Both the position numbers and the translations under genes were made by a program. From the NCBI GenBank assembly GCA_963782055.1, contig CAWAIF010000003.1, positions 6,823,948-6,887,947 on the forward strand: a stretch of DNA of 64,000 nt. Reading direction: 5' to 3'. Every line of letters starts with the position of its first letter. Positions within the stretch are counted from its first letter, which is position 1. Positions 3,758 to 44,346 of this stretch are shown here, in pieces. The notes beneath the pieces were generated by a model. That model saw nothing but the letters and a program-made list of their open reading frames with translations, was not told the origin of the DNA and did not search any database. The DNA comes from an uncultured delta proteobacterium. Its GTDB lineage: Bacteria; Myxococcota_A; Polyangia; Polyangiales; Polyangiaceae.

Positions 3758-5020
3758 ATGCCTCGCTGTACGCTGGAAATATTCGTGGGGAAGCGCTGGG
3801 CGCGCGCGGGCGAGGTGCACGTCACCGACGAGGCGGCCGGCTACGCCGGTCCAGCCCGCTTCGAGTACGACTTCGACTACCTCGAGGGCCACGGGGATGC
3901 GCTCGGGGCCGTCGACGCGCGCGCGGTGTCGTGCCGCTATCCACTCGCTTACGACGTGCGCGACGAACCGCGCTGGCCCGCGTTCTTGCTCGACGTGATC
4001 CCGTCCGGCGCGGCGAGACGCTTCTGGGAGCGGGAGCTCGGGGTCGCGAACGTTGCTTCCTCCGACTGGGCCGTGCTCCTGCGCGGCGGGGGCAATCCGC
4101 CCGGTAACCTTCGCATCGCCGAGGCGGCGCCACCGCCACCCAGGGCGCACCGGGGCTTCGCCCGCGCAGACGTCGTGGCGCGGGCAGAGCGCTTTCTCGA
4201 GCACGCTCGCGCCCACGGTGCGGAGGTCGCCGGAGCCACCGGCGCGGGAGGCGACTCTCCCAAGCTGCTCTTGCGCGAAGATCGCACCGGGCGCTTCCAC
4301 GCCGACGGCGCGATCGACGACGCGGCGACACGCGCGCTCTGGCTCGTGAAGTTCCCGCGATCGCGCAAGGACGTGGACCGGCTCGTGCTGGAGACCGAAG
4401 CCGGGTACCACCGCGTCGCGCGGCGCTTCGGCGTGCGCGTGCACGCCGACCTCACCTGGGAGAGTGACTGCCTCTTCGTACCGCGCTTCGATCGGGTGCT
4501 CGAGGAAGACGGGGGGGTTCGCAGGCTCGGCCTGGAGAGTCTGTGCTCGCTCGCGGGGGTCTCCGACTTCGGGGTGCCGGTCACCAAGGAGGCGCAGGCG
4601 GAAGCGCTCGTGAAGTTCGCCTCGGATCCGGTAGAGGCGCTTCACGAATTCGTGCTCCGCGACGTGCTCAACGTCGCCCTCGGCAATACCGACAATCACG
4701 CGCGGAATACCGCGGTCCTCAAGGACGAGCGCGGCAGCGTCGCGCTGTCACCCCTCTACGATTTCGCCCCGATGCTCCTCGACTCCGAGGGCATCGTCCG
4801 CGTGTGCCGCTGGAGCGACGAGGTGGCCGGGTTCCCGCGCTGGACGGCGGCGCGCGAGGCGCTCGGTGAAGGCGGGATCAGCTGGCTGAGATCGATCGCC
4901 CATCGCGTGCGCACGCTGCCGCGGTGGCTGGACGAGGAGCGCGTCCCCCAGCGGGTTCGCGAGGCGGTGCTCCCGCGCATCGCGCGCGTCGCGCACGACC
5001 TGGAGGAGGGCACGAGGTGA
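3758..5020 (+). CDS. hipA: HipA-like Ser/Thr kinase toxin-family protein (HipA C-terminal kinase fold)
   Basis: 420 aa. Catalytic-loop-like motif NTDNHARNTAV (compare HipA GATDGHAKNFSV), LSPLYDFAPM (compare LTPFYDIISA), and an N-terminal LEIFVGKRWARAGEV coupling-domain-like start. Confidence 0.78.
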   Translation: MPRCTLEIFVGKRWARAGEVHVTDEAAGYAGPARFEYDFDYLEGHGDALGAVDARAVSCRYPLAYDVRDEPRWPAFLLDVIPSGAARRFWERELGVANVASSDWAVLLRGGGNPPGNLRIAEAAPPPPRAHRGFARADVVARAERFLEHARAHGAEVAGATGAGGDSPKLLLREDRTGRFHADGAIDDAATRALWLVKFPRSRKDVDRLVLETEAGYHRVARRFGVRVHADLTWESDCLFVPRFDRVLEEDGGVRRLGLESLCSLAGVSDFGVPVTKEAQAEALVKFASDPVEALHEFVLRDVLNVALGNTDNHARNTAVLKDERGSVALSPLYDFAPMLLDSEGIVRVCRWSDEVAGFPRWTAAREALGEGGISWLRSIAHRVRTLPRWLDEERVPQRVREAVLPRIARVAHDLEEGTR

Positions 5021-5280
5021 CCAAGGAGGAACGCGCGACGCTGCGCCGCGAGCTCTATGCCCGGATAGACCGCGGAGACATCGGGCTCGTGGAGGCCATC
5101 CGCACCATGCGCAGGATCGTCGGCAAGAGCCAGGTCGACTACGCGCGGCTCGTCGGGGTCAGCCCGCGCATCCTCAAGGAGATCGAGCGCGGCGTGGGGA
5201 ACCCGACAATGGAGACGCTCCGGAAGATCCTTCGTCCGTTCCGGCTCGACGTGGGCGTGCGCCGGGCGTCGTCACGATGA
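5017..5280 (+). CDS. XRE-family helix-turn-helix DNA-binding protein (HipB-like antitoxin candidate). Its GTG start overlaps the hipA-like stop (GTGA).
   Basis: VTKEERATLRRELYARI...QVDYARLVGVSPRILKEIERGVGNPTMETLRKIL is a typical XRE HTH. The 4-nt overlap suggests translational coupling. Gene order toxin-then-HTH is the reverse of canonical hipBA. Confidence 0.6.
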   Translation: MTKEERATLRRELYARIDRGDIGLVEAIRTMRRIVGKSQVDYARLVGVSPRILKEIERGVGNPTMETLRKILRPFRLDVGVRRASSR

Positions 5281-5506: not shown

Positions 5507-5765
5507 GGCGAGGTCACCGACGGGTGAGGCGAAGATACCGGACACCGGTCCGCGGGAGGTCGCGGCGTTGTCGGCCCGCACACTGCGCATGCCAACCCGC
5601 ATGATTCTTTGCGGAGCCACATGTTCATGAGGGAGCGCGCCCACACCCGCCCACTAAAGTGCAATCCATCGACCGCCGTGCGTTGACAAGCTAGAGTTCC
5701 TCCCCCAGGCTGCTCGGGCGAGGAGGGAGCCATGAGCAAGCAAGCAAGCAAGCAAGCAAGCGCAA
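5263..5765. repeat. Direct repeat copy 2 of the rtcB 5'/promoter segment (partner of 3063..3560). The GCAA tract at its end is expanded to 6 units.
   Basis: Sequence alignment to 3063..3560. Confidence 0.8.
5736..5759 (+). repeat. Tetranucleotide microsatellite (GCAA)6. It lies immediately after an SD-preceded ATG (5732-5734) and upstream of an out-of-frame lipoprotein signal peptide.
   Basis: Seen directly. GGAGGgagccATGa then GCAAx6. The duplicated copy at 3538-3545 has only 2 units. Confidence 0.9.
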
Positions 5766-5792: not shown

Positions 5793-7667
5793 TTGAGCGC
5801 GCTCGTCGCGGTCTGCGGCACGTCGATGCTCGGCTGGACCTGCGGTGACCCACCCGTCCGGCTCGGAGGCAACGACCTGATCTTCGGTACGCAAGCGCCG
5901 GGGAGCGGCGCGGGCAGCGTGGCGCGCTTGCAGCTCGGCTCGTCCGCGCCTTTCGACCACTGGGACTACCGCGGCGACGCGCTCATCGCCAACGCGGCGA
6001 ACAGCGGTGACCCGGCGAACGAACCGCTCGACCCGTTCGACTTGCCCGCGTACCCCATCGACGGAACGGGGCCCGGAGGCAACCTGAACGTCGAGTACGT
6101 CTTGCAGCACGCATTCTGGGTCACGCGGCAGGGGCGGCATGGGTCCGTCGATCTCGCCGACCAGCACGAGATCATGCTCTTCGCGCGCGATCCCCAGGAG
6201 CAGGCGGAGACGATGCGGAGCTTCGTCGGGAACTACGCGGACGCGGGTACGGCGATCCAGTTCTTCCCGGGCGACTGGGGCAACCTCTGGAACGTGGCCG
6301 CCGTCCCGCTTCCCCGTGGGTTCGTGTACCCTCCCAGCGCCAACTACAACCTCGGCACGCTCGACGAACCGCTACCCGTTCCGCTGACCTTCCCCCTGGT
6401 CGACAAGGCCATCTTCTGGCCGAACTACGTCCCGGTGGGGCCGGGCACGGAGCCCGATGGGCACTCCTCGGTCAAGGCGGTGAAGATCATCAACCGCGGT
6501 CTCTGCGGCAGGGAGCTGCCGTACTACACCGGCGATCCGGACAACCCCGGCATCCTCGAGACCGTGGTGGCCGAGGCCGCTCCGGCGATCGCCGGAGGCA
6601 TCGTCAACGCGGACTGTCACGCCGACGTCACCGTACCCTGGTCGCAGGCCGGCTCCTTCATCGACTTCACCACGGAGCGGGAGGATCGCCAACTCGGAGG
6701 CTTCTTCTTCAACATGGCCGAGAGGTCGTCCGGGTACCTCGGCGTGCAGAGCAAGGTCCTGGCCCGGGCCGCCATCCGGTTCGAGCTCTTCGACGGCCGA
6801 CTCTCCTCGGAAGGCGAGATGGTCCACACCAACGCCGCCGGCGGCCTCGGCGAGGCCGGCGGACTCGTGAGCGACAAGGTCGTCGTCGCCGTGTCCAACG
6901 TCCTCACGAGGGCGATGGACGCACCGCTTCCCACGAACGCCGAGCCAGAGACCCTCGCGGAGACGATTTACCGCGCGTCGGGCGACCTGCAGGGCTACGC
7001 GGGCAGCGACGGGTACAACAAGGCGAAGAAGAAGTTCAACATCGACACCGTGACCGGTCAAACCCGTGTCGATCTGGACGCGACCGGAGGGGACGACTCG
7101 GTGCCGCCGACCACGGCCGACCTGTCCGCGACGCGCTGTGCGGTGTTCGTGGATAGCTTTCGTCACCAGCTCAAGCAGGGCGACCTGCCGGTCGTTGCCC
7201 CCATCCTCGGCCTGACCCCGGCGGAGCGGCAGCAGGTGTGGGACGCGAAGCTCAACGAGACCGAGGTCCGGAACGGCAAGACCGTGCTCAAGAACTTCCG
7301 CTGCGTCCACAGACCCGACAATCCGAAGGACCAGGACCCCAACGAAGGGATCTGCGAGTACGTCGTCCGCGCGAAACGGGTCAACGTCTTTCCCGACGGT
7401 GTGGAGCTGGTCCTGCTCGACGACCTCAAGGACATCAACCAGGCGGCTTATCCGGTGTGGGTCCACGCGATGGCTGCGCAGCTCACCGGGACGGCCGACG
7501 CGCTGAGCAACGTCTGCGATCCACCCCGGTCCCAGGGCGCGACATACACCTTTCGCCCTTTCGTGAGCCCCTTCAAGCTCACCAGCCACGGGGACCGCCA
7601 CTTCCGCTGCGCGGACTCCTGCACGGCGTTTCTCCCGGACTTCTGCTCCCATGTCGAAGAGTACTGA
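5793..7667 (+). CDS. Large secreted lipoprotein of unknown function. The track start (TTG 5793) falls inside the signal-peptide hydrophobic core; the functional start is probably ATG 5732, which requires a change in the GCAA tract length.
   Basis: In the main frame the upstream sequence encodes ...SGLRRRTLLSALVAVCG (n-region RRR, h-region, lipobox AVCG). It contains no ATG/GTG/TTG between a TGA at 5733-5735 and 5793. High third-position GC through 7667. Confidence 0.65.
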   Translation: MSALVAVCGTSMLGWTCGDPPVRLGGNDLIFGTQAPGSGAGSVARLQLGSSAPFDHWDYRGDALIANAANSGDPANEPLDPFDLPAYPIDGTGPGGNLNVEYVLQHAFWVTRQGRHGSVDLADQHEIMLFARDPQEQAETMRSFVGNYADAGTAIQFFPGDWGNLWNVAAVPLPRGFVYPPSANYNLGTLDEPLPVPLTFPLVDKAIFWPNYVPVGPGTEPDGHSSVKAVKIINRGLCGRELPYYTGDPDNPGILETVVAEAAPAIAGGIVNADCHADVTVPWSQAGSFIDFTTEREDRQLGGFFFNMAERSSGYLGVQSKVLARAAIRFELFDGRLSSEGEMVHTNAAGGLGEAGGLVSDKVVVAVSNVLTRAMDAPLPTNAEPETLAETIYRASGDLQGYAGSDGYNKAKKKFNIDTVTGQTRVDLDATGGDDSVPPTTADLSATRCAVFVDSFRHQLKQGDLPVVAPILGLTPAERQQVWDAKLNETEVRNGKTVLKNFRCVHRPDNPKDQDPNEGICEYVVRAKRVNVFPDGVELVLLDDLKDINQAAYPVWVHAMAAQLTGTADALSNVCDPPRSQGATYTFRPFVSPFKLTSHGDRHFRCADSCTAFLPDFCSHVEEY

Positions 7668-29084: not shown

Positions 29085-29950
29085 GCCCCGCCCCCCGGGA
29101 GCTGGGCGGCGAGCGCCTGACACGTGGCCGATGGCAAGCAGACGCCATTGGCGTCTGCGATGGACTGCGACTGCGGCGTGACCTTGAAGGTGAAGCACGC
29201 GTCGCCCCCGCTGCATGGCGGCTGGCCGGCACCGCAGATGCTATTCACCGTGGTGGCCGCGCAGAAGCCGACGGGGTGCAGGGGCGCGCGCCCGATGCAG
29301 TGCTGCCCGGTATCACACCCGCCGCAGTTCCCGCCGCACACCTGGACACCCGGGATCGAGGGGCACATGGACGGATTGGGTGGCGTGTCGCCGGTGAACA
29401 GATCGCGGTCGTAGTAGGTGACGTCTAGGTCGGCGGAGGCGTCCGGGTCGGCGCGGTAGAGCAGCTCACCCAGCTCGAAGGGAAAACACATCAGGCCCTT
29501 GAGTGGCTGGTGATAGCCACTCGGCACACACAGGTCGCCATCGTTACAATTGAGGCATCCGGTCACGCCGAAGGAATAGGCCGCGAGGGCCTTGTTGTAG
29601 CAGATTTGGACCGGCGCCGAGGCATCGCACCCCGAAAGGCAAGCCGTTGGAGGATCGCAGCCCCCGCCGCAGATGGCATATCCGCTCGGCGACATGCAAC
29701 GCGAGTAGCCCGCGTCGTCGACCGGGCCGGCGTCGATCACGTCCGGCGCAGCGTCGGGGCGTCCGGCCTCCGGGCCCTCGTCGACGGTGCCCCCGCAGGC
29801 GGCGAGCACCCAAAGCAGCGCGGGAAGCCACCGGAGCGTCACTGGCACTGCCCGTTCGTCGGGTTGGTCGCTGGCGGCGTACACCCGCTCGTGTTCCCCT
29901 GCGTGCAGATGGGCTGGACGCAGGCACGTGTATCGCAATCGACTGCGCAC
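29075..29950 (-). CDS. Cys-rich secreted lipoprotein, paralog of 7651..8493
   Basis: Shared C-terminal block ..CFTFKVTPQSQSIADANGVCLPSATCQALAAQLPGGGACN. Signal peptide/lipobox LLWVLAACGG. Confidence 0.6.
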   Translation of the reverse strand: MRSRLRYTCLRPAHLHAGEHERVYAASDQPDERAVPVTLRWLPALLWVLAACGGTVDEGPEAGRPDAAPDVIDAGPVDDAGYSRCMSPSGYAICGGGCDPPTACLSGCDASAPVQICYNKALAAYSFGVTGCLNCNDGDLCVPSGYHQPLKGLMCFPFELGELLYRADPDASADLDVTYYDRDLFTGDTPPNPSMCPSIPGVQVCGGNCGGCDTGQHCIGRAPLHPVGFCAATTVNSICGAGQPPCSGGDACFTFKVTPQSQSIADANGVCLPSATCQALAAQLPGGGACN

Positions 29951-31611
29951 GGCCCCGCAGGAGTCTCACTGCTAGGACAGGTGGCCGGGCCGCCATTCTT
30001 GAACGCCCAGTCCTCGTTGTAGAAGTTGGCCAGATCGATGCCGGCATCGACGAGCGGCGCTCGCCTGGCGGTGCAGATCTTGGTGAACCAGTCCGTCCGC
30101 GTGAAGTCGACGTGTCCGAGTGGTGGCGCGTCCGTCATGAACGAGGCGTAGAACAAGGCGAGCGCCGGGTTGTTGATCTCGTCCAGACGATCGAAGAGCA
30201 CAGCCTCTGCCGCCTGCGGCCGGTAGTTCAGCCGCTTCATCGGGACGATGATCTCGCAGCGCCCGTGATGCGGGTTGACGCACGCGTTGCTCCGGTCGAC
30301 GGAGCTGGGGAAGGGCACGCAACCCCAGTGCACGAGGTGCCCCCCGGACGTCGCCATGATGGTCTCCGCGAGAGTATTGGCGTCGCTGGCTGCCATGCCG
30401 AACTCCTTTGCACCCTCGCTTGCGGTGTCTCTCACCGTCTTCGCCGCGGCTTTGCATTGCTCGCTCGGGTCCGCGGGGCACGTGTAGTTCGGGTCGCCCT
30501 TGACGGGATCGCACGCAAAGAGCGTGTCACGAGCCGAGTCGGAGAAGTCGTCCAGTTTGGGGTACATCTGCAGCGCCTGCGCCGTATCGTGAATCTGCCG
30601 CGGGATGTCGTCCGTCAGCGCGGACGTGAGCGTGTTGGAAAGTCCCGGGATGTCGACGAAGTACGGGGGGAAGATCACGTGGACGCCGTTGCACGCCCGT
30701 GTCGGCTGATCATCCAGCGTGCTCGGAAAGGCGTTGCCATGGCCATCCACGCCCGCAGGACCCCCGCCGAAGCTCGATTCAGCCGCCACGACGCCGTCGG
30801 AGCCCACGAAGAGGCGGAAGGCGCTCGAGAACGCCGCGTCGCATTTCTCATCTGGCCCGGGATTCACACCCTGGGTCACGTCAAGCAGTTCGAGCGCCAC
30901 GTTCGAGATCTGCAGCCTGACGTCACCGTTCATCACGAAGCCTCCTCGCAGGTCCTGCACCCGTCCCTGCGTGTGGGCGATGAACGAGGCGAAGTTGTCG
31001 TATGCGAGCGTCAAGGACGAGAGCGAGTCCGTGGTGAAGCACGCAGCCCCGTGGTTCGTGAACAGGCTTCCCCGGAGCCCCGTGTCGATCTGCGCGAACA
31101 GATCCGCGTATGCGAACTCCTGCGAGCATCCGCCAGCCTGCGAGAGGTAGGCGCTCCGGATCGTGCCCGAGTTGTTCGGCGAGTTGAAGTCGCCAGGCGT
31201 AAGGTGCAGCTCGGTCGGTGTGGGGCCGAAGGGTTGAGTCGTCGCCGGTAGGACCACACCGGGCGGCTGCTTCCGCGTCAAGCCGAGCCAGAAGAACTCC
31301 GCGGCCGTTCTGGTGAGCGCCTCGAAGCGATCCTCGAAGTCGATCGAGAAGATGTGCGCTTCGTAGGGGTTCACCAGCAGGGCCGAATCGAACGGATCGG
31401 CCAGGATGAATGCCGGAAGAGGGTCGTTCTCGTCGCTCCCGCGCAGGCGTGCGTGCACGGGAAACAATGTGGTGCCGCCGTGGAAGGAGTCGATGTATAG
31501 GCTCCTCGCCGGCACGCTCGCGAGCTCTCCGCAGGTCGTATACGTGTTGGGGCATCCCGTCGTGCCCCACGCGTACGTTTGCGGGGCGTACGTCAACCCG
31601 GGGATGATCAA
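29839..31611 (-). CDS. Secreted protein of unknown function. The frame is open upstream through a heptanucleotide SSR to an out-of-frame ATG at ~31852; the track start (TTG 31611) is probably not the real start.
   Basis: Upstream of 31611 the main frame encodes ..(LVARRSS)n LLLAVSAVTCNPSPPAGDHTYTFEILVDGAGATGGSGTQLVAFHSAGLKEL, which is signal-peptide-like, with no start codon. Confidence 0.65.
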   Translation of the reverse strand: MIIPGLTYAPQTYAWGTTGCPNTYTTCGELASVPARSLYIDSFHGGTTLFPVHARLRGSDENDPLPAFILADPFDSALLVNPYEAHIFSIDFEDRFEALTRTAAEFFWLGLTRKQPPGVVLPATTQPFGPTPTELHLTPGDFNSPNNSGTIRSAYLSQAGGCSQEFAYADLFAQIDTGLRGSLFTNHGAACFTTDSLSSLTLAYDNFASFIAHTQGRVQDLRGGFVMNGDVRLQISNVALELLDVTQGVNPGPDEKCDAAFSSAFRLFVGSDGVVAAESSFGGGPAGVDGHGNAFPSTLDDQPTRACNGVHVIFPPYFVDIPGLSNTLTSALTDDIPRQIHDTAQALQMYPKLDDFSDSARDTLFACDPVKGDPNYTCPADPSEQCKAAAKTVRDTASEGAKEFGMAASDANTLAETIMATSGGHLVHWGCVPFPSSVDRSNACVNPHHGRCEIIVPMKRLNYRPQAAEAVLFDRLDEINNPALALFYASFMTDAPPLGHVDFTRTDWFTKICTARRAPLVDAGIDLANFYNEDWAFKNGGPATCPSSETPAGPCAVDCDTRACVQPICTQGNTSGCTPPATNPTNGQCQ

Positions 31612-31763
31612 CTCCTTCAGCCCCGCGGAGTGGAACGCAACGAGTTGCGTCCCGGAGCCGCCCGTCGCACCGGCGCCATCAACGAGGATCTCGAAGGTGT
31701 ACGTATGGTCGCCTGCCGGTGGACTCGGGTTGCAGGTGACCGCACTGACAGCGAGGAGCAGGG

Positions 31764-31847
31764 CGACGAGCGACGAGCGACGAGCGACGAGCGACGAGCG
31801 ACGAGCGACGAGCGACGAGCGACGAGCGACGAGCGACGAGCGACATG
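31764..31847 (-). repeat. Heptanucleotide microsatellite (CGACGAG)~12 on the plus strand, (CTCGTCG)n on the coding strand. It lies directly after ATGTCG, and the ATG is out of frame with the downstream signal peptide.
   Basis: Seen directly. All three frames of the tract encode the same (LVARRSS)n heptad. Copy number is 12 by my reading (+/-1). Frame relation is derived from the track ORF phases. Confidence 0.85.
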
Positions 31848-38438: not shown

Positions 38439-39170
38439 TCAGAACGAGCGCATGACGCTCAGCTCGGGCATGTACGCGATGGCGCCTCCCCGGCCGAACG
38501 CGGCGGCGATCTTCAGCGGGGCGAGCATCATGCCGAGGTTTGCGTTCCCGAAGCGGATGCCGAGACCGGTGGTGACGAAGAAAGGCCCGGCGACGTCCCA
38601 CGCCTGCACCGGCTGGTGTCCGAGAACGTCGTCCTTCACCACGAGGGTGAGGTCGACCGGCGCGCCGAAATCGGCCATCCCGAAGCCGAAGAGGGCGTAG
38701 GGCCGAAAGGCGTAGCGGGTGCGCGTGAGCGGGTGCGCGCCGAGCACCCAGGTAACGCGTGCCTCCAACATGGAGTCGTTGAGCAATCCGTAGTCGGCGA
38801 CGTGGACGTTCTGGGGGTGGAAGTAGAAGCCGTACCGAACGCCGAGCAGGACGCCGTCGGTGAGCGCGACGTCGACCGCACCGACGGCGAAGTTGGCGAG
38901 TCCGCCGAGGCCCGGGCGGACGTCCGTCCCGCCCGACACGACGGAGCTCCGGGGGCTCGGGAAGACGGGGCCGCCGTCCTTCTCCGCGCACGTCCACGCT
39001 GCGCTCGCGCAGACGTTCGCACCGGATGGATGCAAGACGATGGTCAGCCCGTCGGAGAATCCGAGCCAGAAGCGGTGGAGCTTCACCGGCTTGTCGCCCG
39101 CGGCGAGTCCGGCCCGCGGGAGCGCCAGCAGCGCGAGCGAGACGGCGAACGCGGCCAGCTTGCGGTTCAC
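38439..39170 (-). CDS. Small outer-membrane beta-barrel protein. Its GTG start overlaps the RCC1 stop.
   Basis: Signal peptide VNRKLAAFAVSLALLALPRAGLA. Alternating beta-strand pattern. C-terminal aromatic ...YMPELSVMRSF. Paralog at 44349..45071. Confidence 0.6.
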   Translation of the reverse strand: MNRKLAAFAVSLALLALPRAGLAAGDKPVKLHRFWLGFSDGLTIVLHPSGANVCASAAWTCAEKDGGPVFPSPRSSVVSGGTDVRPGLGGLANFAVGAVDVALTDGVLLGVRYGFYFHPQNVHVADYGLLNDSMLEARVTWVLGAHPLTRTRYAFRPYALFGFGMADFGAPVDLTLVVKDDVLGHQPVQAWDVAGPFFVTTGLGIRFGNANLGMMLAPLKIAAAFGRGGAIAYMPELSVMRSF

Positions 39171-40390
39171 GGCAACCCCACGACGCGTGTCGGAACGTCG
39201 CGGTCGGCCGTCGTCCCGTCGCCGAGCTGGCCGTAGTCGTTCCATCCCCAGCAGTAGACATCGCCGGAGACGAGGAGCGCACACGAGAAGTCGTAGCCGG
39301 CGTGGAGGTCGACGATGCCGGAGAGCCGCCCATCGCCCGACGGAGAGACGACCGGGGTCGGCGTGAGGTGCTGGTCGGTCGTGCCGTCGCCGAGCTGGCC
39401 GTGGGTGTTCGCGCCCCAGCACACCGCCGTGCCGTCGGCGAGCCGGGCGCAGGAGTGGTAGTCGCCGAGCGCGAGTTGCACGGCATCCGTCAACCCCGCG
39501 ACTTTCACTGGCGTCGATCGGTCGGTGCCCTTCGTACCGTCGCCGACCTGGCCCTCGCTGTTCCAGCCCCAGCACCAGGCCGTCCCGCCCTCCACCAGCG
39601 CGCACGCGTGGACCAGTCCTACGAAGGCCTTCTGGACCTTCGTGCCCGGTGGCAGGAGGACCGCGGCGAGCGCCGGGTGATAGGCGGACGATTCCGCCCC
39701 GTTACCGAGGACCCCAGAGGTCTGGTGACCGCAGCAGTACACAGATGTGTCCCGGGTACCGCACAGGAACTGCTGGCCCAGCGCAACGCTATCGAGCGAC
39801 CCGAGGTCCGGGCGCGGCGCCGGCGTGGCCGGGTAGCCTGCGTCCGGATATGTCGGGTCGCAGTCTGGTGGATAGCCCCAGCAATAGAGGGCATGGTCGG
39901 CTCGACGCGCACACTCGAAGTCGCCGTGCGGCGAGGAAATAAGCGCGGTCGCGCCCTTGAGTACTGCAACACCGGGGGGCGTTTGCGGCTTGCCGGACCC
40001 ATCGCCCAGGCGCTGAAACTGGTCGTCGTATCCCCAGCAATCGACGGTTCCGTCGGCAAGCAGGATGCATTGACCTATGTAGTGCGCGCTGACCATGATG
40101 GGAACGCCGTTGGTCGGGACGGCCTGTGGCCTGGGGACTGCCAGCCAGCCGCCGTCACCACCCACTTCACCGTTGGGACTCCCCCCCCAGCATAGCAGGG
40201 TTCCCTCACGGCTCCGGTAGCAGGCATGACGACCGTCGGCGACCAGCAGCGGCGCGAAACCGCCTCCGTCGGAGGCATCGCTCACGTCCCGGCCGGCGTC
40301 GGCACGTTGCGGTACGCCAAGCCCGGTACGTGCGCCGCAACCCGCGAGCAAGATGATGAGAGACGCGTACTGAAGCGTCGGCGACGGCAT
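39167..40390 (-). CDS. RCC1-repeat (regulator of chromosome condensation-like beta-propeller) lipoprotein
   Basis: MPSPTLQYASLIILLAGCG lipobox. Repeated C.GWN..GQLGDG / HSCA..DG...CWG motifs, 6-7 blades. Confidence 0.75.
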   Translation of the reverse strand: MPSPTLQYASLIILLAGCGARTGLGVPQRADAGRDVSDASDGGGFAPLLVADGRHACYRSREGTLLCWGGSPNGEVGGDGGWLAVPRPQAVPTNGVPIMVSAHYIGQCILLADGTVDCWGYDDQFQRLGDGSGKPQTPPGVAVLKGATALISSPHGDFECARRADHALYCWGYPPDCDPTYPDAGYPATPAPRPDLGSLDSVALGQQFLCGTRDTSVYCCGHQTSGVLGNGAESSAYHPALAAVLLPPGTKVQKAFVGLVHACALVEGGTAWCWGWNSEGQVGDGTKGTDRSTPVKVAGLTDAVQLALGDYHSCARLADGTAVCWGANTHGQLGDGTTDQHLTPTPVVSPSGDGRLSGIVDLHAGYDFSCALLVSGDVYCWGWNDYGQLGDGTTADRDVPTRVVGLP

Positions 40391-40401: not shown

Positions 40402-41733
40402 TCAGTGGCACGCGCCGTCCACGCAGGTCTGCCCAGACCCACAGCATGCCCCATCGACGACACACGACGCCGGGCAGCAATCCTGAGCGCCACCTGGTAG
40501 CGTCATGCACGGTCCGCCGCAGCAGTGTCCCCCGCAAAGCCGTGCGCCGCCGTTGCCGCCGGAGATCGTGATGTTGCAGCACGTCTGGTCGGTGGTCGCG
40601 CAGACGGAACCAGGGAAGCAGCACTCGCCGCCGCACTGTGTCGCGGCGGCTGGACAGGTGCAGGTCCCGTCCGGGTTGCAGACATTTCCGCCCGTGCAGC
40701 ACGTCGTCGTCCCGTTCGCCGGGTTGGGACACACGTCCGCCGGGCCGCAGCACGTGTCGGTCTTCGCGTCGCAGGGCTGACCCTCCGGGCAGCACACCGT
40801 TCCGCCATTGCACGCCCGGTCGTTGGGGCAGCAGGTGCTGTCCGCCTCCGAGGTGCACGTTTCGGTGCCGCTATCGCAGCAGTTCTGGTTGCAGCTCGTC
40901 GTACCGCCCGGACAGCAAAGATGCTGCGCTTCGCTCGAGCATGTCGAGCCGTAGTCGCAACAGAAGTGGCCTTGACCCTCGACGCCGCACGGAACGGGGC
41001 AGCAGCCGAACTGGTTCCCGAGCTCGTTGCACTGGTCGTTGCAAACGTTGTCGGCGAGCACCGCGGCGACGATGACGACCGCGAGGCAGACAGCGAGCGG
41101 AATGCCGAAGAACTGTCCGTCCCAGACGGCCGCGCAGGTGACCAATCCCAAGAATACCGCCAAGGAGGCGCCCACCGTGCACTGCAGGTGGCAATTCCGG
41201 CAATTCTCCCCATCCTGCGGGTACTCCGGCTGCGCGGGAACCGACGACACTGACGAACCGTCAGCCGCCACGCACGTGCCCGACGACAGCACCTCCTGCA
41301 AGTGCTTGTAGGTGTCCAGGATGTGCTGCGACGCAGGTGCCACCCCCGCGTCGAAGGGCGTCCCGTCGGCGAAGTGCACCGTGCTCGCGTCGGCGTCCTT
41401 CGGAAAGGGCGCGAGCGGCTTGCCGTCGACGTCGCCGGTGACGACGGTGTCGCCGCGGAGCAGGTGGATGACGTGCTGCTCCTGCCCGCTGTACGCCGGG
41501 CCCTGCTTCACCGTCTCGCTCCAGCCCTGCGGGGTGGAGACGGCGGTCGCGTCGAACGCCAGCGACCCGTCGACGACGAGCCGCATCTCGGTCGACGTGG
41601 GCGACATGTCCATGTCGAGCTCGTTCGCGCCGTCGGTGACGGTGCGATGCCAGCCGCCATCGCTGGCCGTCGCGGTACACAGCGGCACCGAGGAGGACGG
41701 CGAATCGCTCGAGCAGCTGAGGACGCCGAGCAC
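40402..41733 (-). CDS. Membrane-anchored protein with an extremely Cys-rich C-terminal domain (CC/CCP/CCG clusters, ~60 Cys in 200 aa). The functional start is probably the ATG at 41806 beyond a pentanucleotide SSR.
   Basis: Upstream of the GTG at 41733 the main frame encodes ..PRARSVLAASGALLVLGVLSC (signal/lipobox-like) with no start codon. Two internal hydrophobic helices, then a C-rich tail. Confidence 0.62.
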   Translation of the reverse strand: MLGVLSCSSDSPSSSVPLCTATASDGGWHRTVTDGANELDMDMSPTSTEMRLVVDGSLAFDATAVSTPQGWSETVKQGPAYSGQEQHVIHLLRGDTVVTGDVDGKPLAPFPKDADASTVHFADGTPFDAGVAPASQHILDTYKHLQEVLSSGTCVAADGSSVSSVPAQPEYPQDGENCRNCHLQCTVGASLAVFLGLVTCAAVWDGQFFGIPLAVCLAVVIVAAVLADNVCNDQCNELGNQFGCCPVPCGVEGQGHFCCDYGSTCSSEAQHLCCPGGTTSCNQNCCDSGTETCTSEADSTCCPNDRACNGGTVCCPEGQPCDAKTDTCCGPADVCPNPANGTTTCCTGGNVCNPDGTCTCPAAATQCGGECCFPGSVCATTDQTCCNITISGGNGGARLCGGHCCGGPCMTLPGGAQDCCPASCVVDGACCGSGQTCVDGACH

Positions 41734-41770
41734 GAGGAGCGCTCCGGATGCAGCTAGGACACTACGGGCA

Positions 41771-41800
41771 CGAGGCGAGGCGAGGCGAGGCGAGGCGAGG
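41771..41800 (-). repeat. Pentanucleotide microsatellite (CGAGG)6 on the plus strand, (CCTCG)6 on the coding strand. It lies directly after ATGTCG (ATG 41806..41804), and the ATG is out of frame with the downstream signal peptide. A G9/C9 homopolymer lies 25-33 nt upstream, at 41830-41838.
   Basis: Seen directly. Copy number is confirmed by two independent track translations (MSPRLASPRLASCP, DVASPRLASPRLVPVVS). A main-frame TGA overlaps the ATG. Confidence 0.9.
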
Positions 41801-42271
41801 CGACATCACGTTTCCCCTTTCGTGACACGCCCCCCCCCGGTGGCGACGCGTGAACGCCATCCTCGGCCTGTCCACCTCCGAAGACAAGGCACGAAGGCAA
41901 GCCATCAAAGAATGAGTAGGAGGTCGTCGCACACGCGCGCGCTCCTGCCGAACTGGTGTCCGCGCCGTCCGCGCCACCACGCCCCGGCCTCGCGGCGCGG
42001 GATGGACCGCAGCTCATTCCATTGTAATGATCGACGGATGGCCCTCGGTCGACACCTGCAGCTCGCCGCGACTGCCGCGTTCCTCGTGGGGTGTGGCGGG
42101 ATCGTCGCCGCGCCTCCCGATGCCGGTGCAGGCGCCGCCGCGCGAGGCTCGGGGTTCGCCCTCGGGGTGACGCGCTGACGACGGCGCGCCCGGTTCTGGC
42201 CATCCCCGGATCAGCGCGCGCGAACGACGATCGGGCGGGCACCCGCCGGCAATCTCCGGCGACGAGAGTGC

Positions 42272-42649
42272 TCACCCCGTGCGCCGGCCGGCGCGGGGTC
42301 GGGCGCCCTCGGCCATGCGCGCGCGGAGCAGCTTCTTCACCAGCGAGGTGGGCAGCGGCCGGTCCGGACCGAAGTGCAGCGCGCTCTTCGTCTTGTCGTA
42401 GACGGCGAGGTCGGCCGCGAGCGTGCGCAAGGTCGTCCCGCTGAAGGGGTAGTACGAGCAGCCCCTGGAGGTGGCGGAGAAGCCCGCGATGACCTTCCCC
42501 TCGTGGCGGAAGGCGGGCAGGCGGTAGCTGATGCACTCCTCCGCGTCGGGGACGAGGGCGCGGATGGTCTTGCGCAGCTCCTCGAGCAGCGCGCGGCTCT
42601 TCGGGGGCACGCCGGCGAGGTACGCGTCGATGCCGGGGTCACGTTTCAT
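42272..42649 (-). CDS. DUF1801 (YdhG-like) domain protein, near-identical second copy
   Basis: Translation identical or nearly identical to 38032..38409. Confidence 0.68.
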   Translation of the reverse strand: MKRDPGIDAYLAGVPPKSRALLEELRKTIRALVPDAEECISYRLPAFRHEGKVIAGFSATSRGCSYYPFSGTTLRTLAADLAVYDKTKSALHFGPDRPLPTSLVKKLLRARMAEGARPRAGRRTG

Positions 42650-42786
42650 CTGAGCGTCTCCTCCTCGAGGCGCCGGCGCTCGGGGCCCATCACGGCGCGC
42701 TGACGGGCTCGGCCGAAGCAGCTGTCAGCCGCACCGGATCGTACGCGATGACCACCTGCCTGGCGTTCCACGTTTTCCACGTTTCA

Positions 42787-42851
42787 ATTTCCCGAACGGG
42801 AAATTTCCGTTTGCCAGGACTCATCGGGGAGCTACGTTTCCCGAACGGGAA
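42787..42851. promoter_or_regulatory. Two palindromic operator-like sites: ATTTCCCGAACGGGAAAT at 42787-42804 and TTTCCCGAACGGGAAA at 42836-42851. The proximal site ends 5 nt before the hipB-like ATG at 42856.
   Basis: Seen directly. Perfect inverted repeats TTTCCCG-AA-CGGGAAA. The arrangement parallels the 3701..3756 sites. Confidence 0.5.
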
Positions 42852-42855
42852 AATC

Positions 42856-43113
42856 ATGGCGGAACGGACCAAGAGCGAACCAGACTTCCCGAGCGGGATC
42901 ATTCGAACGCCGAAGGACATCGGCGCGTGGGTGCGCCGCGCGCGGAGGGCGAGCGGGAAGACGCTCGCGGAGGCCGCCGCGCTCACCGGCGTCGGGGTGC
43001 GCTTCCTCCACGAGCTGGAGCACGGCAAGGAGACCGCGTCCCTCGGCAAGGCGCTCCTGGTGCTCCACCGCATGGGACTCGTGCTCGCGATCCGCGAACG
43101 GCGCGCGCGATGA
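42856..43113 (+). CDS. hipB: HipB-like XRE-family HTH antitoxin candidate
   Basis: 85 aa, ..IGAWVRRARRASGKTLAEAAALTGVGVRFLHELEHGK.. Its stop overlaps the hipA ATG (ATGA). Confidence 0.7.
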   Translation: MAERTKSEPDFPSGIIRTPKDIGAWVRRARRASGKTLAEAAALTGVGVRFLHELEHGKETASLGKALLVLHRMGLVLAIRERRAR

Positions 43114-44346
43114 CGCGCAGGCTGGTCGTCGTCCACGGGCTGCGACGCGTCGGTCACCTCGAACCGAGCGACGACCGCATGACGTTCGCGTACGACCCGG
43201 CATGGGTCGCCTCTCCGGACGCCTTCGCGATCTCCGCTCAGCCTGCCGCTGGACGGGAACTTCGATGCGACGCGCGCCACGCGGTTCTTCGCGAACCTCC
43301 TGCCCGAGGCGAACGTACGGACGCTCATCTGCCGCCGTCTCGGGCTCTCCGGGTCGAACGACTTCGGCCTCCTCGCCGCCATTGGTGGGGAATGCGCGGG
43401 AGCGCTCTCCATCCTTCCGGAGGGCGTCGACCCGGCGGAGCACGCGAACGAGTACGAGGAGCTGGACCGGGCGAGGCTCGAACAGCTGGCCACGAGCTAC
43501 GAGGCGCTGCCCATCGTCGACGGGTCCGGCCGCGCCCGGCTCTCCCTCGCCGGCGCGCAGGACAAGCTGCCCGTGAGGATGGACGGCGATCGCATTCTCT
43601 TGCCGATCGGCAACTCGCCGAGCTCGCACATCCTCAAGCTCCCCAACCGCAACTACAAGCATCTGCCGGCGAACGAGGCGCTCGTCATGGAGCTGGCGCG
43701 GCAGGTGAAGCTTCCAGTCGTGGCGACGACGTGGCGTGCCCTCGGAGAGGAGGGGATGTGCATCGTGGAGCGCTACGACCGCGTGGTCCGGGGCGGCGAG
43801 CTCCGTCGCGTGCACCAGGAGGACTTCTGCCAGGCCATGGGCCTCTCCTTCAGCACGAAGTACGAGGAGGAGGGCGGCCCGTCCTTCGCGAGCTGCGTCG
43901 AGCTGGTACGCGAGCACTCGGTCGTGCCGCTCGCCGACGTCGACGCGCTCCTCGGCTGGCTCGCCTTCGACGCGATCGCCGCCAACGCGGACGGTCACGG
44001 CAAGAACCTGTCGCTGCTCCTCGGAGGAGGGCCGAGGCTCGCTCCCTTCTACGATCTGGTCTGTACGCGAGCCTACGAAGGTCTCGACCGGCGCCTGGCG
44101 ATGAGCATCGGCGACGAGCGCGACCCGGATCGGCTGCGGCCCGAGCACCTCGACGATTGCGCCGCCGCGCTCGACGTGAAGCCGTGGCTCCTCCGCGCGA
44201 CGTTCGAGCGGATGGCGGACTCGATCCTCCAGCGGCTCGACGCCACGGTCGAGGCCGCCGGGGTGGGTGAGTCGCCCGCCGTACGACGCACCGTGCCGCT
44301 CGTGCGGAAGCAGGCGAAGCGCTGGCTTCGAGAGCTGGGCGGGTGA
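43110..44346 (+). pseudogene. hipA: HipA-family Ser/Thr kinase toxin gene with a +1 frameshift at ~43233-43237. The N-terminus is in one frame and the rest of the protein (from ISLSLPL) is in the next.
   Basis: Frame A reads MTRRLVVVHGLRRVGHLEPSDDRMTFAYDPAWVASPDAFAIS. Frame B reads LSLPLDGNFDATRATRFFANLLPE...IGGECAGALSI...DGHGKNLSLLLGG..FYDLV to 44346. One extra nucleotide in atcTCCGctc. Confidence 0.7.

What the first reader, a model, noticed from the sequence alone, without database searches (positions are those of the whole stretch)
41725..41845. Second locus with the same design: ATGTCG, (CCTCG)6, then an out-of-frame signal peptide, plus an upstream G9 homopolymer
On the minus strand, an ATG at 41806 has AGGGGA 7 nt upstream and is followed by six CCTCG units (plus-strand CGAGG at 41771-41800). 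The Cys-rich protein's frame (track start GTG 41733) continues upstream as ..PRARSVLAASGALLVLGVLSC, a signal/lipobox-like sequence. It is closed by a TGA that overlaps the ATG (gTGATGtcg) and contains no start codon. The ATG frame itself terminates after 15 codons. Seven or four repeat units would put the ATG in frame. A second potentially slippery tract, G9 (C9 on plus, 41830-41838), lies 25-33 nt upstream in the promoter/5'UTR. The ATG-frame peptide MS(PRLAS)n and the locus-three peptide MS(LVARRSS)n both begin ATGTCG.
Basis: partly seen in the sequence, partly recalled or inferred. Interest (0 to 1): 0.88.

Follow-up and report, generated by a model that had tools for sequence, protein, structure and literature searches.

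The report
Repeat-controlled on/off switch of a lipoprotein gene
A run of six CCTCG units between a lipoprotein gene's start codon and its export signal puts the gene out of frame, and near-identical relatives carry different unit numbers that turn it on or off, so this is a classic slippage switch, here in a GC-rich environmental bacterium.

Summary
On the minus strand there is a Shine-Dalgarno site, ATG 41806, a perfect (CCTCG)6 tract and then a lipoprotein signal peptide that sits one frame off. No start codon lies in the body frame, and 7 or 4 units would restore it.

It is one of three perfect non-triplet repeats in the window (units of 4, 5 and 7 nt). Each follows an ATG and each is one unit away from being in frame. 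Simulated sequence gives none of this length.

The product belongs to a family of at least 173 cluster representatives: cysteine-rich lipoproteins, in the close subfamily followed by an RCC1-repeat lipoprotein gene. Relatives carry a repeat at the same spot:
- One has about 12-13 units of the same pentamer and is in frame.
- Two contigs that differ by 1 mismatch in 3.9 kb carry 3 versus 15 units.
- Two alleles 98% identical carry (CGTCT)5 (intact, 489 aa) versus 9 units (frameshifted).
- Two paralogues carry (CTGT)8.5 versus 5.5.
- A repeat-free paralogue is invariant.

This is slipped-strand, translational phase variation, the same design as Neisseria opa. It is a new member of a known kind, in a free-living, probably Myxococcota-like lineage. 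The G9 tract's role is unproven. Length variation in this organism itself was not tested.

The parts
41830..41838 (-). G9 homopolymer, 24-32 nt upstream of the ATG, probably in the 5'UTR. Its role is unproven.
   Evidence: A G7 lies at the same distance from the SD-ATG in L001 and L013. It is absent in L005 and L006.
41813..41818 (-). Shine-Dalgarno-like AGGGGA, 6 nt before the ATG
   Evidence: The same context, GAAAGGGGAAWCGTGATG, precedes the in-frame start of homologue P0018 in L005.
41806..41808 (-). TGA that closes the body frame and overlaps the ATG (gTGATG)
41804..41806 (-). ATG, the functional start codon of the switch
41771..41803 (-). Perfect pentanucleotide tract: (CCTCG)6 on the coding strand, reported by TRF as 6.6 copies of CGAGG on the plus strand. 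This is the slippage-prone element that sets the reading frame.
   Evidence: Homologous tracts of 3, 12-13 and 15 units occur in L001, L005 and L013.
41762..41764 (-). TAG that ends the 14-aa ATG-frame peptide in the present (OFF) phase
41713..41770 (-). Rest of the lipoprotein signal peptide in the body frame (RARSVLAASGALLVLGVLS-C). The lipobox Cys codon is at 41713-41715.
   Evidence: The lipobox ..LSCSSD is conserved in P0002, P0008, P0010, P0011 and P0018. The structure model predicts a helix at residues 11-29.
41731..41733 (-). GTG used as the start in the public annotation (P0001, 443 aa). It lies inside the signal-peptide hydrophobic core, with GGAG 8 nt upstream.
   Evidence: plus direct reading
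40402..41712 (-). Mature protein and stop codon: a beta-sheet domain, a hydrophobic helical hairpin, then a cysteine-rich C-terminal stack. It matches no Pfam or NCBIfam family.
39167..40390 (-). Downstream RCC1-repeat lipoprotein gene, starting 11 nt after the stop codon and probably co-expressed
   Evidence: The same gene pair occurs in L001, L013, L014, L015 and L016.
5732..5761 (+). Parallel locus 1: ATG followed by (AGCA)6.8, out of frame with the 5793-7667 body. Removing one unit puts it in frame.
31763..31846 (-). Parallel locus 3: ATG followed by (TCGCTCG)11.7, out of frame with the 29839-31611 body. Removing one unit puts it in frame.

Best explanation
This is a translational phase-variation (contingency) switch. 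The gene's true start is ATG 41806, which has a Shine-Dalgarno site. The (CCTCG)n tract between that ATG and the hydrophobic core of a lipoprotein signal peptide gains or loses whole 5-nt units by slipped-strand mispairing during replication.

With n = 4, 7, 10 and so on, the ATG reads through the tract as (PRLAS) repeats in the positively charged n-region. It continues into ..VLAASGALLVLGVLS-C, and the cysteine-rich lipoprotein is exported. With other n, as in the present 6 units, translation stops after 14 residues. The protein then lacks its export signal, so the gene is OFF. The closely following RCC1 lipoprotein gene is probably affected too.

Shown here: the anatomy, the statistical non-randomness, the same design at three loci, and natural tract-length and ON/OFF polymorphism at homologous loci. 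Inferred: the slippage mechanism and its rate, reversibility in this organism, export and surface location, and polarity on the RCC1 gene.
For: 1. The anatomy is exact, and a single unit change restores a canonical lipoprotein signal peptide.

2. The window's only three long perfect repeats all have non-triplet units. Each starts within 3-6 nt of an ATG, and each is one unit from ON. Simulations give none of 25 nt or more.

3. The signal peptide in the body frame is conserved in homologues at about 30% identity (..LSCSSD). It must therefore be translated, and GTG 41733 cannot supply it.

4. Homologue P0018 (L005) has the same SD-ATG context and 12-13 units of the same pentamer, in frame: MLASPRLASPRLASPRLASPRLARV...

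5. L001 and L013 differ by 1 mismatch in 3.9 kb but carry 3 versus 15 units.

6. L006 carries (CGTCT)5 and an intact 489-aa product. Its 98%-identical allele L014 has 9 units, and the gene caller gave only a truncated 339-aa product. The 20-nt tract difference is the only indel in the gene.

7. Paralogues L002 and L004 are 88.6% identical. Both keep a perfect (CTGT)n tract at the same place, with 8.5 versus 5.5 copies.

8. The repeat-free paralogue P0008 has an identical 5' end in two samples.

9. All the window tracts pass the repeat-number thresholds used to call phase-variable loci in Neisseria (PMC5953494).
Against: - No second genome or read set of this organism was available, so variation at this very locus is not shown.
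- Eight of the ten repeat-bearing loci examined are out of frame. That fits a random phase (one in three ON) but also fits decay.
- GGAG lies 8 nt before GTG 41733, so some translation of a signal-less product cannot be excluded.
- In L001 and L013 both alleles (3 and 15 units) are in the same phase, and the SD-ATG is out of frame in both.
- Metagenome assemblies can misrepresent repeat lengths, although tracts of 15-75 nt are shorter than the k-mer in the contig names (k141).
Confidence: 0.8

Rival explanations
1. This is a decayed allele or pseudogene. The repeat is an accidental expansion that has permanently inactivated the gene in this strain, and there is no adaptive switching.
For: The gene is out of frame here, as are the two other repeat-bearing genes in the window. 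Most homologous repeat-bearing loci found are also out of frame. The products are orphan proteins of unknown function.
Against: - The 443-codon body is otherwise intact, with GC3 of 0.87, typical of the genome.
- The frame break lies exactly at the repeat in every case.
- The tracts remain perfect while flanking sequence diverges by 11% or more.
- In-frame alleles exist.
- Three independent loci each one unit from ON would not be expected from random decay.
Confidence: 0.1
2. The short ATG-frame ORF is a leader peptide (uORF). The real product starts at GTG 41733, as in the public annotation, by reinitiation or from its own GGAG. On this view the repeat tunes translation rather than switching it off.
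For: The public annotation starts at GTG 41733 (P0001). GGAG lies 8 nt upstream of that GTG. The uORF stop at 41762 is 29 nt upstream of the GTG.
Against: - A product beginning MLGVLSC has no n-region and only 5 hydrophobic residues before the lipobox Cys, so it could not be exported or lipidated.
- The model has a large cysteine-rich domain that would need an oxidising compartment.
- The complete signal peptide is conserved in frame upstream of that Val codon in homologues.
- In L005 and L006 the SD-ATG reads straight through.
Confidence: 0.05
3. The unit count in the deposited genome is a sequencing or assembly error. The real sequence has 7 (or 4) units and the gene is simply ON.
For: Repeat counts can be miscalled, and all three window loci are exactly one unit from ON.
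Against: - Whole-unit errors of 4, 5 and 7 nt at three separate loci are not a typical error mode.
- The tracts (27-82 nt) are short relative to read lengths.
- Even if this were true, the locus would still be a repeat-bearing switch, as its relatives show.
Confidence: 0.05

Closest known systems
Neisseria opa genes: (CTCTT)n in the signal-peptide coding region (own knowledge; Neisseria repeat-bearing phase-variable genes are surveyed in PMC5953494)
   Same: A pentanucleotide repeat lies between the start codon and the signal-peptide cleavage site. The unit number sets the reading frame, so expression is ON or OFF at translation. Several family members in one genome switch independently.
   Different: The unit here is GC-rich and encodes the charged n-region (PRLAS) rather than the hydrophobic core. 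The product is a cysteine-rich lipoprotein of an unannotated family, not an outer-membrane beta-barrel adhesin. The organism is a large-genome, roughly 70% GC environmental bacterium rather than a host-restricted pathogen. No switching rates have been measured.
Helicobacter pylori oipA (CT)n and Neisseria pilC poly-G tracts in signal-peptide-encoding regions (PMC10564699; PMC13190605, citing Jonsson et al. 1991)
   Same: The frame-shifting repeat is placed in the signal-peptide-encoding 5' end of a surface-protein gene.
   Different: Those tracts are dinucleotide or homopolymer rather than pentamer, and they occur in host-adapted pathogens.
Haemophilus influenzae tetranucleotide contingency loci such as lic1 (CAAT)n (PMC2651432)
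   Same: Multiple unlinked genes each carry a 5' non-triplet repeat. This matches window locus 1, (AGCA)n, and the (CTGT)n homologues.
   Different: Some Haemophilus loci have alternative ATGs in two frames, which gives graded expression (own knowledge). Here GTG and ATG are adjacent in a single frame, so only one phase in three is ON.
Promoter-spacer homopolymer switches such as Neisseria porA and opc or Bordetella fim (own knowledge)
   Same: A G/C homopolymer of nine lies upstream of a surface-protein gene.
   Different: The G9 here ends only 23 nt before the ATG, with the SD in between. It cannot lie between a -35 and a -10 box, and no sigma-70-like promoter was detected. No length variation was seen in the one lineage with two alleles.

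Membership tests
SSR-mediated translational phase-variable (contingency) locus | A perfect tandem repeat with a unit length not divisible by 3 (or a homopolymer) inside the 5' coding region, long enough to be unstable | tested here: met
   (CCTCG)6, 100% perfect, starts 3 nt after the ATG. It passes the threshold of 5 or more pentanucleotide units used for Neisseria phase-variable gene calls (PMC5953494).
SSR-mediated translational phase-variable (contingency) locus | A change of unit number moves the ORF in or out of frame with its start codon | tested here: met
   In silico, 6 units gives a stop after 14 aa, while 7 or 4 units gives a full-length pre-lipoprotein. Natural example: L006 (5 units, intact) versus L014 (9 units, truncated).
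SSR-mediated translational phase-variable (contingency) locus | Tract length is polymorphic among closely related strains or within a population, while flanking sequence is conserved | tested here: inconclusive
   The feature is met for homologous loci: 3 versus 15 units with 1 mismatch in 3.9 kb, 5 versus 9 units at 98% identity, and 8.5 versus 5.5 units in paralogues. It could not be tested for this locus in this organism, because no second genome or reads were retrievable.
SSR-mediated translational phase-variable (contingency) locus | High-frequency, reversible switching of the phenotype in clonal cultures | not testable with these tools
   This needs culture work, reporter fusions or deep sequencing.
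SSR-mediated translational phase-variable (contingency) locus | The product is exposed to the environment (a surface or exported molecule) | tested here: inconclusive
   The ON form has a lipoprotein signal peptide and lipobox (GVLS-C), and the model has a disulfide-rich domain. Localisation is inferred only.
Promoter or 5'UTR homopolymer phase-variation switch (for the G9 tract) | The homopolymer lies between the -35 and -10 elements, or in a defined regulatory site, and varies in length between isolates | tested here: not met
   No promoter hexamers were found around it, and it ends 23 nt before the ATG. The G7 at the same distance in L001 and L013 is identical in both alleles, and L005 and L006 have no G tract. 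RNA pairing of G9 with the repeat is possible but no more stable than in shuffled sequence (z = +1.13).

The most novel reading that the evidence does not exclude
This genome and its relatives, apparently free-living soil or sediment Myxococcota-like bacteria, may maintain a sizeable set of repeat-switched lipoprotein genes. The window has three in 64 kb, with 4-, 5- and 7-nt GC-rich units, and different family members have independently acquired different units at the same position. That would be a bet-hedging system for surface lipoproteins, acting for example against phage, predators or prey, or in kin recognition. It would extend contingency-locus biology beyond host-adapted pathogens. The G-tract may add a second, graded layer of control.
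Probability: 0.3. Interest if true: 0.75.

Novelty: new member of a known kind. Interest (0 to 1): 0.6.

Why it matters
Repeat-driven contingency loci are textbook features of small-genome, host-restricted pathogens such as Neisseria, Haemophilus, Helicobacter, Campylobacter and Mycoplasma. This locus and its two neighbours suggest that a large, 70% GC environmental genome uses the same trick on several lipoprotein genes. Metagenomic alleles of relatives support this. I found no report of repeat-driven phase variation in myxobacteria in the searchable literature.

There are three practical consequences:
- The public annotation starts these genes at internal GTG or TTG codons and so hides their signal peptides.
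- Automated annotation and pseudogene calls in such genomes will systematically misread these loci.
- An uncharacterised cysteine-rich lipoprotein and RCC1 lipoprotein pair is flagged as being under fluctuating selection, which gives a lead to its function.

Tried and rejected
- **Family libraries.** Pfam, NCBIfam, PADLOC and PHROGs gave no match for the three repeat-bearing gene products.
- **Word-indexed homologue searches.** These returned almost nothing. The family only appeared with the exhaustive profile search.
- **Source genome.** It could not be retrieved and was not among the genome-contig hits. The organism is therefore unnamed and no other strains were compared.
- **Metagenome scan.** The 21-nt SD-ATG context found only the L005 contig again, plus five unrelated genes. 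That motif is a generic ribosome-binding context, not a conserved switch module.
- **L003.** This Chloroflexota hit matches only the cysteine-rich tail and was discarded.
- **Promoter and terminator scan.** Nothing was found upstream.
- **RNA searches.** Rfam and tRNA searches of the window were empty.
- **Folding.** The RNA fold of the 5' region is not unusually stable. The repeat forms no hairpin as single-stranded DNA, so simple misalignment rather than hairpin-driven slippage is assumed.
- **Structure search.** The PDB search of a confident model gave no significant match, and afdb50 was unavailable.
- **Programmed ribosomal frameshifting.** I considered and rejected it. The required shift differs between loci (+1 in the window, +2 in L001, L002 and L004), there is no common slippery motif, and in-frame natural alleles exist.
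Full report
**1. Checking the observation**

Reading the minus strand of 41000-42200 and translating all three frames confirms every sequence statement in the finding.
- AGGGGA lies at 41818-41813, followed by 6 nt and then ATG at 41806-41804.
- A TGA at 41808-41806 overlaps the ATG and closes the downstream body frame.
- Six perfect CCTCG units lie at 41800-41771. Tandem Repeats Finder reports 41771-41803, period 5, 6.6 copies, 100% matches.
- The ATG frame reads MSPRLASPRLASCP and stops at TAG 41764-41762.
- The frame of the 443-codon cysteine-rich ORF (40402-41733) continues upstream as CRLASPRLASPRARSVLAASGALLVLGVLSC. It has no ATG, GTG or TTG before GTG 41733.
- ATG to GTG is 73 nt, so 7 or 4 units put the ATG in frame. 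The product then begins MSPRLASPRLASPRARSVLAASGALLVLGVLS-CSSD. That is an Arg-rich n-region, a 14-residue hydrophobic core and a lipobox.
- G9 lies at 41838-41830 and is the longest homopolymer in the window.

**2. Is it more than chance?**

A scan for perfect repeats of any unit length found only three tracts of 16 nt or more in the 64 kb. They are this one, (AGCA)6.8 at 5735-5761 and (GCGACGA)11.7 at 31763-31844. There were no triplet-type tracts at all.

In 200 first-order Markov simulations of the window, the mean was 0.125 tracts of 16 nt or more, and none reached 25 nt.

All three tracts begin 3-6 nt after an ATG that has a purine-rich ribosome-binding site. All three are followed, in another frame, by a signal-peptide-like sequence and a long intact ORF. 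In all three the body frame is closed by a stop codon at or next to the ATG. Each is exactly one unit away from being in frame: -1, +1 and -1. G9 alone is not statistically unusual for 70% GC sequence.

**3. The gene and its family**

The product matches nothing in Pfam, NCBIfam, PADLOC or PHROGs. The public annotation (P0001) starts it at GTG 41733, on a 7,003,164-bp contig.

An exhaustive profile search with the non-cysteine-rich part found a family of 173 cluster representatives (E of 0.001 or better). Most listed members are about 450-600 aa with lipoprotein or twin-arginine-like signal sequences.

An AlphaFold model built on 50 family members is confident, with mean pLDDT 82.9. It shows, in order:
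- a signal helix;
- a beta-sheet domain (residues 42-135);
- a hydrophobic helical hairpin (residues 200-260);
- a cysteine-rich beta-hairpin stack to the C-terminus.

The model has no significant match in the PDB.

An RCC1-repeat lipoprotein gene starts 11 nt after the stop codon. The same gene pair recurs in the close relatives.

The window is about 70% GC. The genome encodes BamA, SurA, RtcB and PhoH-type core genes between the repeat loci. The nearest genomic relative is a MAG labelled "uncultured delta proteobacterium". A Myxococcota-like affiliation is an inference.

**4. Comparative evidence for the switch**

| Locus (product) | Repeat after the ATG | State |
|---|---|---|
| Window locus 2 (P0001) | (CCTCG)6 | OFF; +1 or -2 units gives ON |
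| L005 (P0018, 32% identical) | same pentamer, 12-13 units | ON |
| L001 (P0002) | same pentamer, 3 units | SD-ATG out of frame |
| L013 (P0158) | same pentamer, 15 units | SD-ATG out of frame |
| L006 (P0023) | (CGTCT)5 | ON, 489 aa |
| L014 (P0157) | (CGTCT)9, one imperfect unit | OFF, called as 339 aa |
| L002 | (CTGT)8.5 | OFF |
| L004 (P0007) | (CTGT)5.5 | OFF |
| L015 and L016 (P0008) | none | intact, identical 5' end in two samples |

(a) L005 has the same ribosome-binding context as the window, CACGAAAGGGGAATCGTGATG. Its ATG reads through the tract in frame: MLASPRLASPRLASPRLASPRLARVLTG..ISCSSD.

(b) L001 and L013 come from sister assemblies and differ by 1 mismatch in 3.9 kb. The only other difference is a 60-nt indel in the tract, 3 versus 15 units. 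With 2 units, the SD-ATG would give the canonical pre-lipoprotein MRTRLAKAVIVGLTAAVLGALSC.

(c) L006 and L014 are 98.2% identical. The 20-nt tract difference is the only indel inside the gene. Four extra units throw L014 out of frame, and the gene caller returned only a truncated 339-aa product.

(d) L002 and L004 are two paralogous 2.4-kb modules, 88.6% identical, in the delta-proteobacterial MAG. Each keeps a perfect (CTGT)n tract between an ATG and the signal peptide ..GWMILLVVSAC.

(e) P0008 is a paralogue in the same sample as L013. It has no repeat, a normal SD-ATG and an identical 5' end in two independent samples.

Taken together, the repeat is the hypervariable site and both phases occur in nature. 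Different family members carry different units at the same functional position. Across the ten repeat-bearing loci examined (eight family loci plus window loci 1 and 3), two are ON. That is compatible with a random one-in-three phase.

**5. Mechanism**

The best explanation is classical slipped-strand mispairing at a coding-region repeat, giving translational ON/OFF phase variation.

Each three added units lengthen the n-region by five residues (PRLAS). This probably leaves signal-peptide function intact, as the 12-13-unit in-frame allele suggests.

In the OFF phase the ribosome stops after 14 codons. A product from GTG 41733 would begin MLGVLSC and could not be exported or lipidated. The disulfide-rich domain would then stay in the cytoplasm.

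The RCC1 gene starts 11 nt downstream with no visible ribosome-binding site of its own. In relatives it overlaps the upstream gene. It is therefore probably co-regulated through translational coupling or polarity, which is an inference.

The repeat forms no hairpin as single-stranded DNA.

**6. The G9 tract**

G9 ends 23 nt before the ATG, with the Shine-Dalgarno site in between, so it cannot lie in a promoter spacer. No sigma-70-like promoter was detected.

A G7 sits at the same 24-nt distance in L001 and L013, but it is identical in both alleles. L005 and L006 have no G tract.

In an RNA fold, G9 can pair with the first repeat units and leave the Shine-Dalgarno site in a loop. The fold is no more stable than shuffled sequence, with z = +1.13. 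Its role is open.

**7. Rival explanations**

- **Pseudogene decay.** This is disfavoured. The body is intact with GC3 of 0.87. The frame breaks lie only at the repeats, the tracts stay perfect while flanks diverge, and in-frame alleles exist.
- **Leader peptide with a GTG 41733 start.** This is disfavoured by the conserved full signal peptide upstream of that codon and by the read-through alleles.
- **Assembly error in the unit count.** This cannot be excluded for the window itself, but it would not change what the locus is.
- **Programmed frameshifting.** This is rejected because the required shift differs between loci and there is no common slippery motif.

**8. Comparison with known systems, and novelty**

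The design is that of Neisseria opa: a pentamer in the signal-peptide coding region. It also resembles H. pylori oipA and Neisseria pilC (PMC10564699; PMC13190605) and Haemophilus tetranucleotide loci (PMC2651432).

All the window tracts exceed the thresholds used to call phase-variable repeats in Neisseria (PMC5953494).

I found no report of repeat-driven phase variation in myxobacteria in the searchable literature. GC-rich examples in host-adapted bacteria, such as Burkholderia mallei and Bordetella, are known to me from general knowledge.

The finding is therefore a new member of a known kind. Three things make it interesting: the lineage and lifestyle, the multi-locus pattern, and the uncharacterised protein family.

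**9. Verdict**

- Observation: confirmed.
- Interpretation: supported, except for the unproven G9 role.
- Confidence in the phase-variation explanation: about 0.8.
- Interest: about 0.6.

Noticed in passing
window 5732-5761 (+), body ORF 5793-7667: Locus 1 has SD GAGGAGGGAG, ATG 5732 and (AGCA)6.8. A TGA overlaps the ATG and closes the body frame, and removing one unit gives MSKQASKQAQSSGLRRRTLLSALVAVCG... The 624-aa-plus product is an orphan.
   Followed up: partly
window 31763-31846 (-), body ORF 29839-31611: Locus 3 has ATG 31846 and (TCGCTCG)11.7, the longest repeat tract in the window. Removing one unit gives MS(LVARRSS)3LVALLLAVSAVTC... The public annotation (P0006, 585 aa) starts far inside the gene. 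The product is a distant paralogue of the locus 1 product (C-terminal 74 aa, 32% identity, E = 6e-7).
   Followed up: partly
window 3758-5280 and 42748-44346: HipA-like kinase genes lie next to locus 1 and locus 2; the one beside locus 2 is paired with an XRE-type helix-turn-helix gene, and a small ORF overlaps the end of the one beside locus 1. A PIN/MazE pair lies upstream of the homologous repeat-bearing gene in L006. The repeated adjacency of toxin-antitoxin modules to these switch genes is unexplained.
   Followed up: no
window 40181-40188 (G8 on the minus strand): The second-longest homopolymer lies inside the downstream RCC1 lipoprotein gene. It encodes Trp-Gly-Gly (TGG GGG GGG) of a CWGGSP motif. 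It could be a further slippery site or just a consequence of the codons used.
   Followed up: no
L001 345-1737; L013 530-994 and 5794-7865: In the metagenomic relative, the cysteine-rich and RCC1 gene pair is flanked by IS66-family transposase genes. One is upstream in L001, and they lie on both sides in L013. The pair may be mobile there.
   Followed up: no
window 42272-42649 (-): The DUF1801 protein upstream of locus 2 (P0003) has a one-residue variant (P0004) recorded on a contig of the same length (7,003,164 bp). This suggests a second copy in the same genome or a second near-identical assembly. Neither could be retrieved.
   Followed up: partly
window 5.7-7.7 kb, 29.8-31.9 kb and 40.4-41.8 kb: The three repeat-bearing genes sit in local GC dips (0.65-0.68, against 0.70-0.75 around them), although their GC3 is genome-like (0.84-0.89). 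They are interspersed with core genes such as RtcB, PhoH, SurA, TldD and BamA, so they are not in one island.
   Followed up: partly
L001 3034-3131 and L013 2232-2298: In this lineage the body frame stays open upstream of the SD-ATG. Gene callers therefore chose far-upstream GTG or ATG starts that add 24-35 residues before the signal peptide. Both alleles (3 and 15 units) are in the phase that keeps these upstream starts in frame. Whether an upstream start is used is unknown.
   Followed up: no
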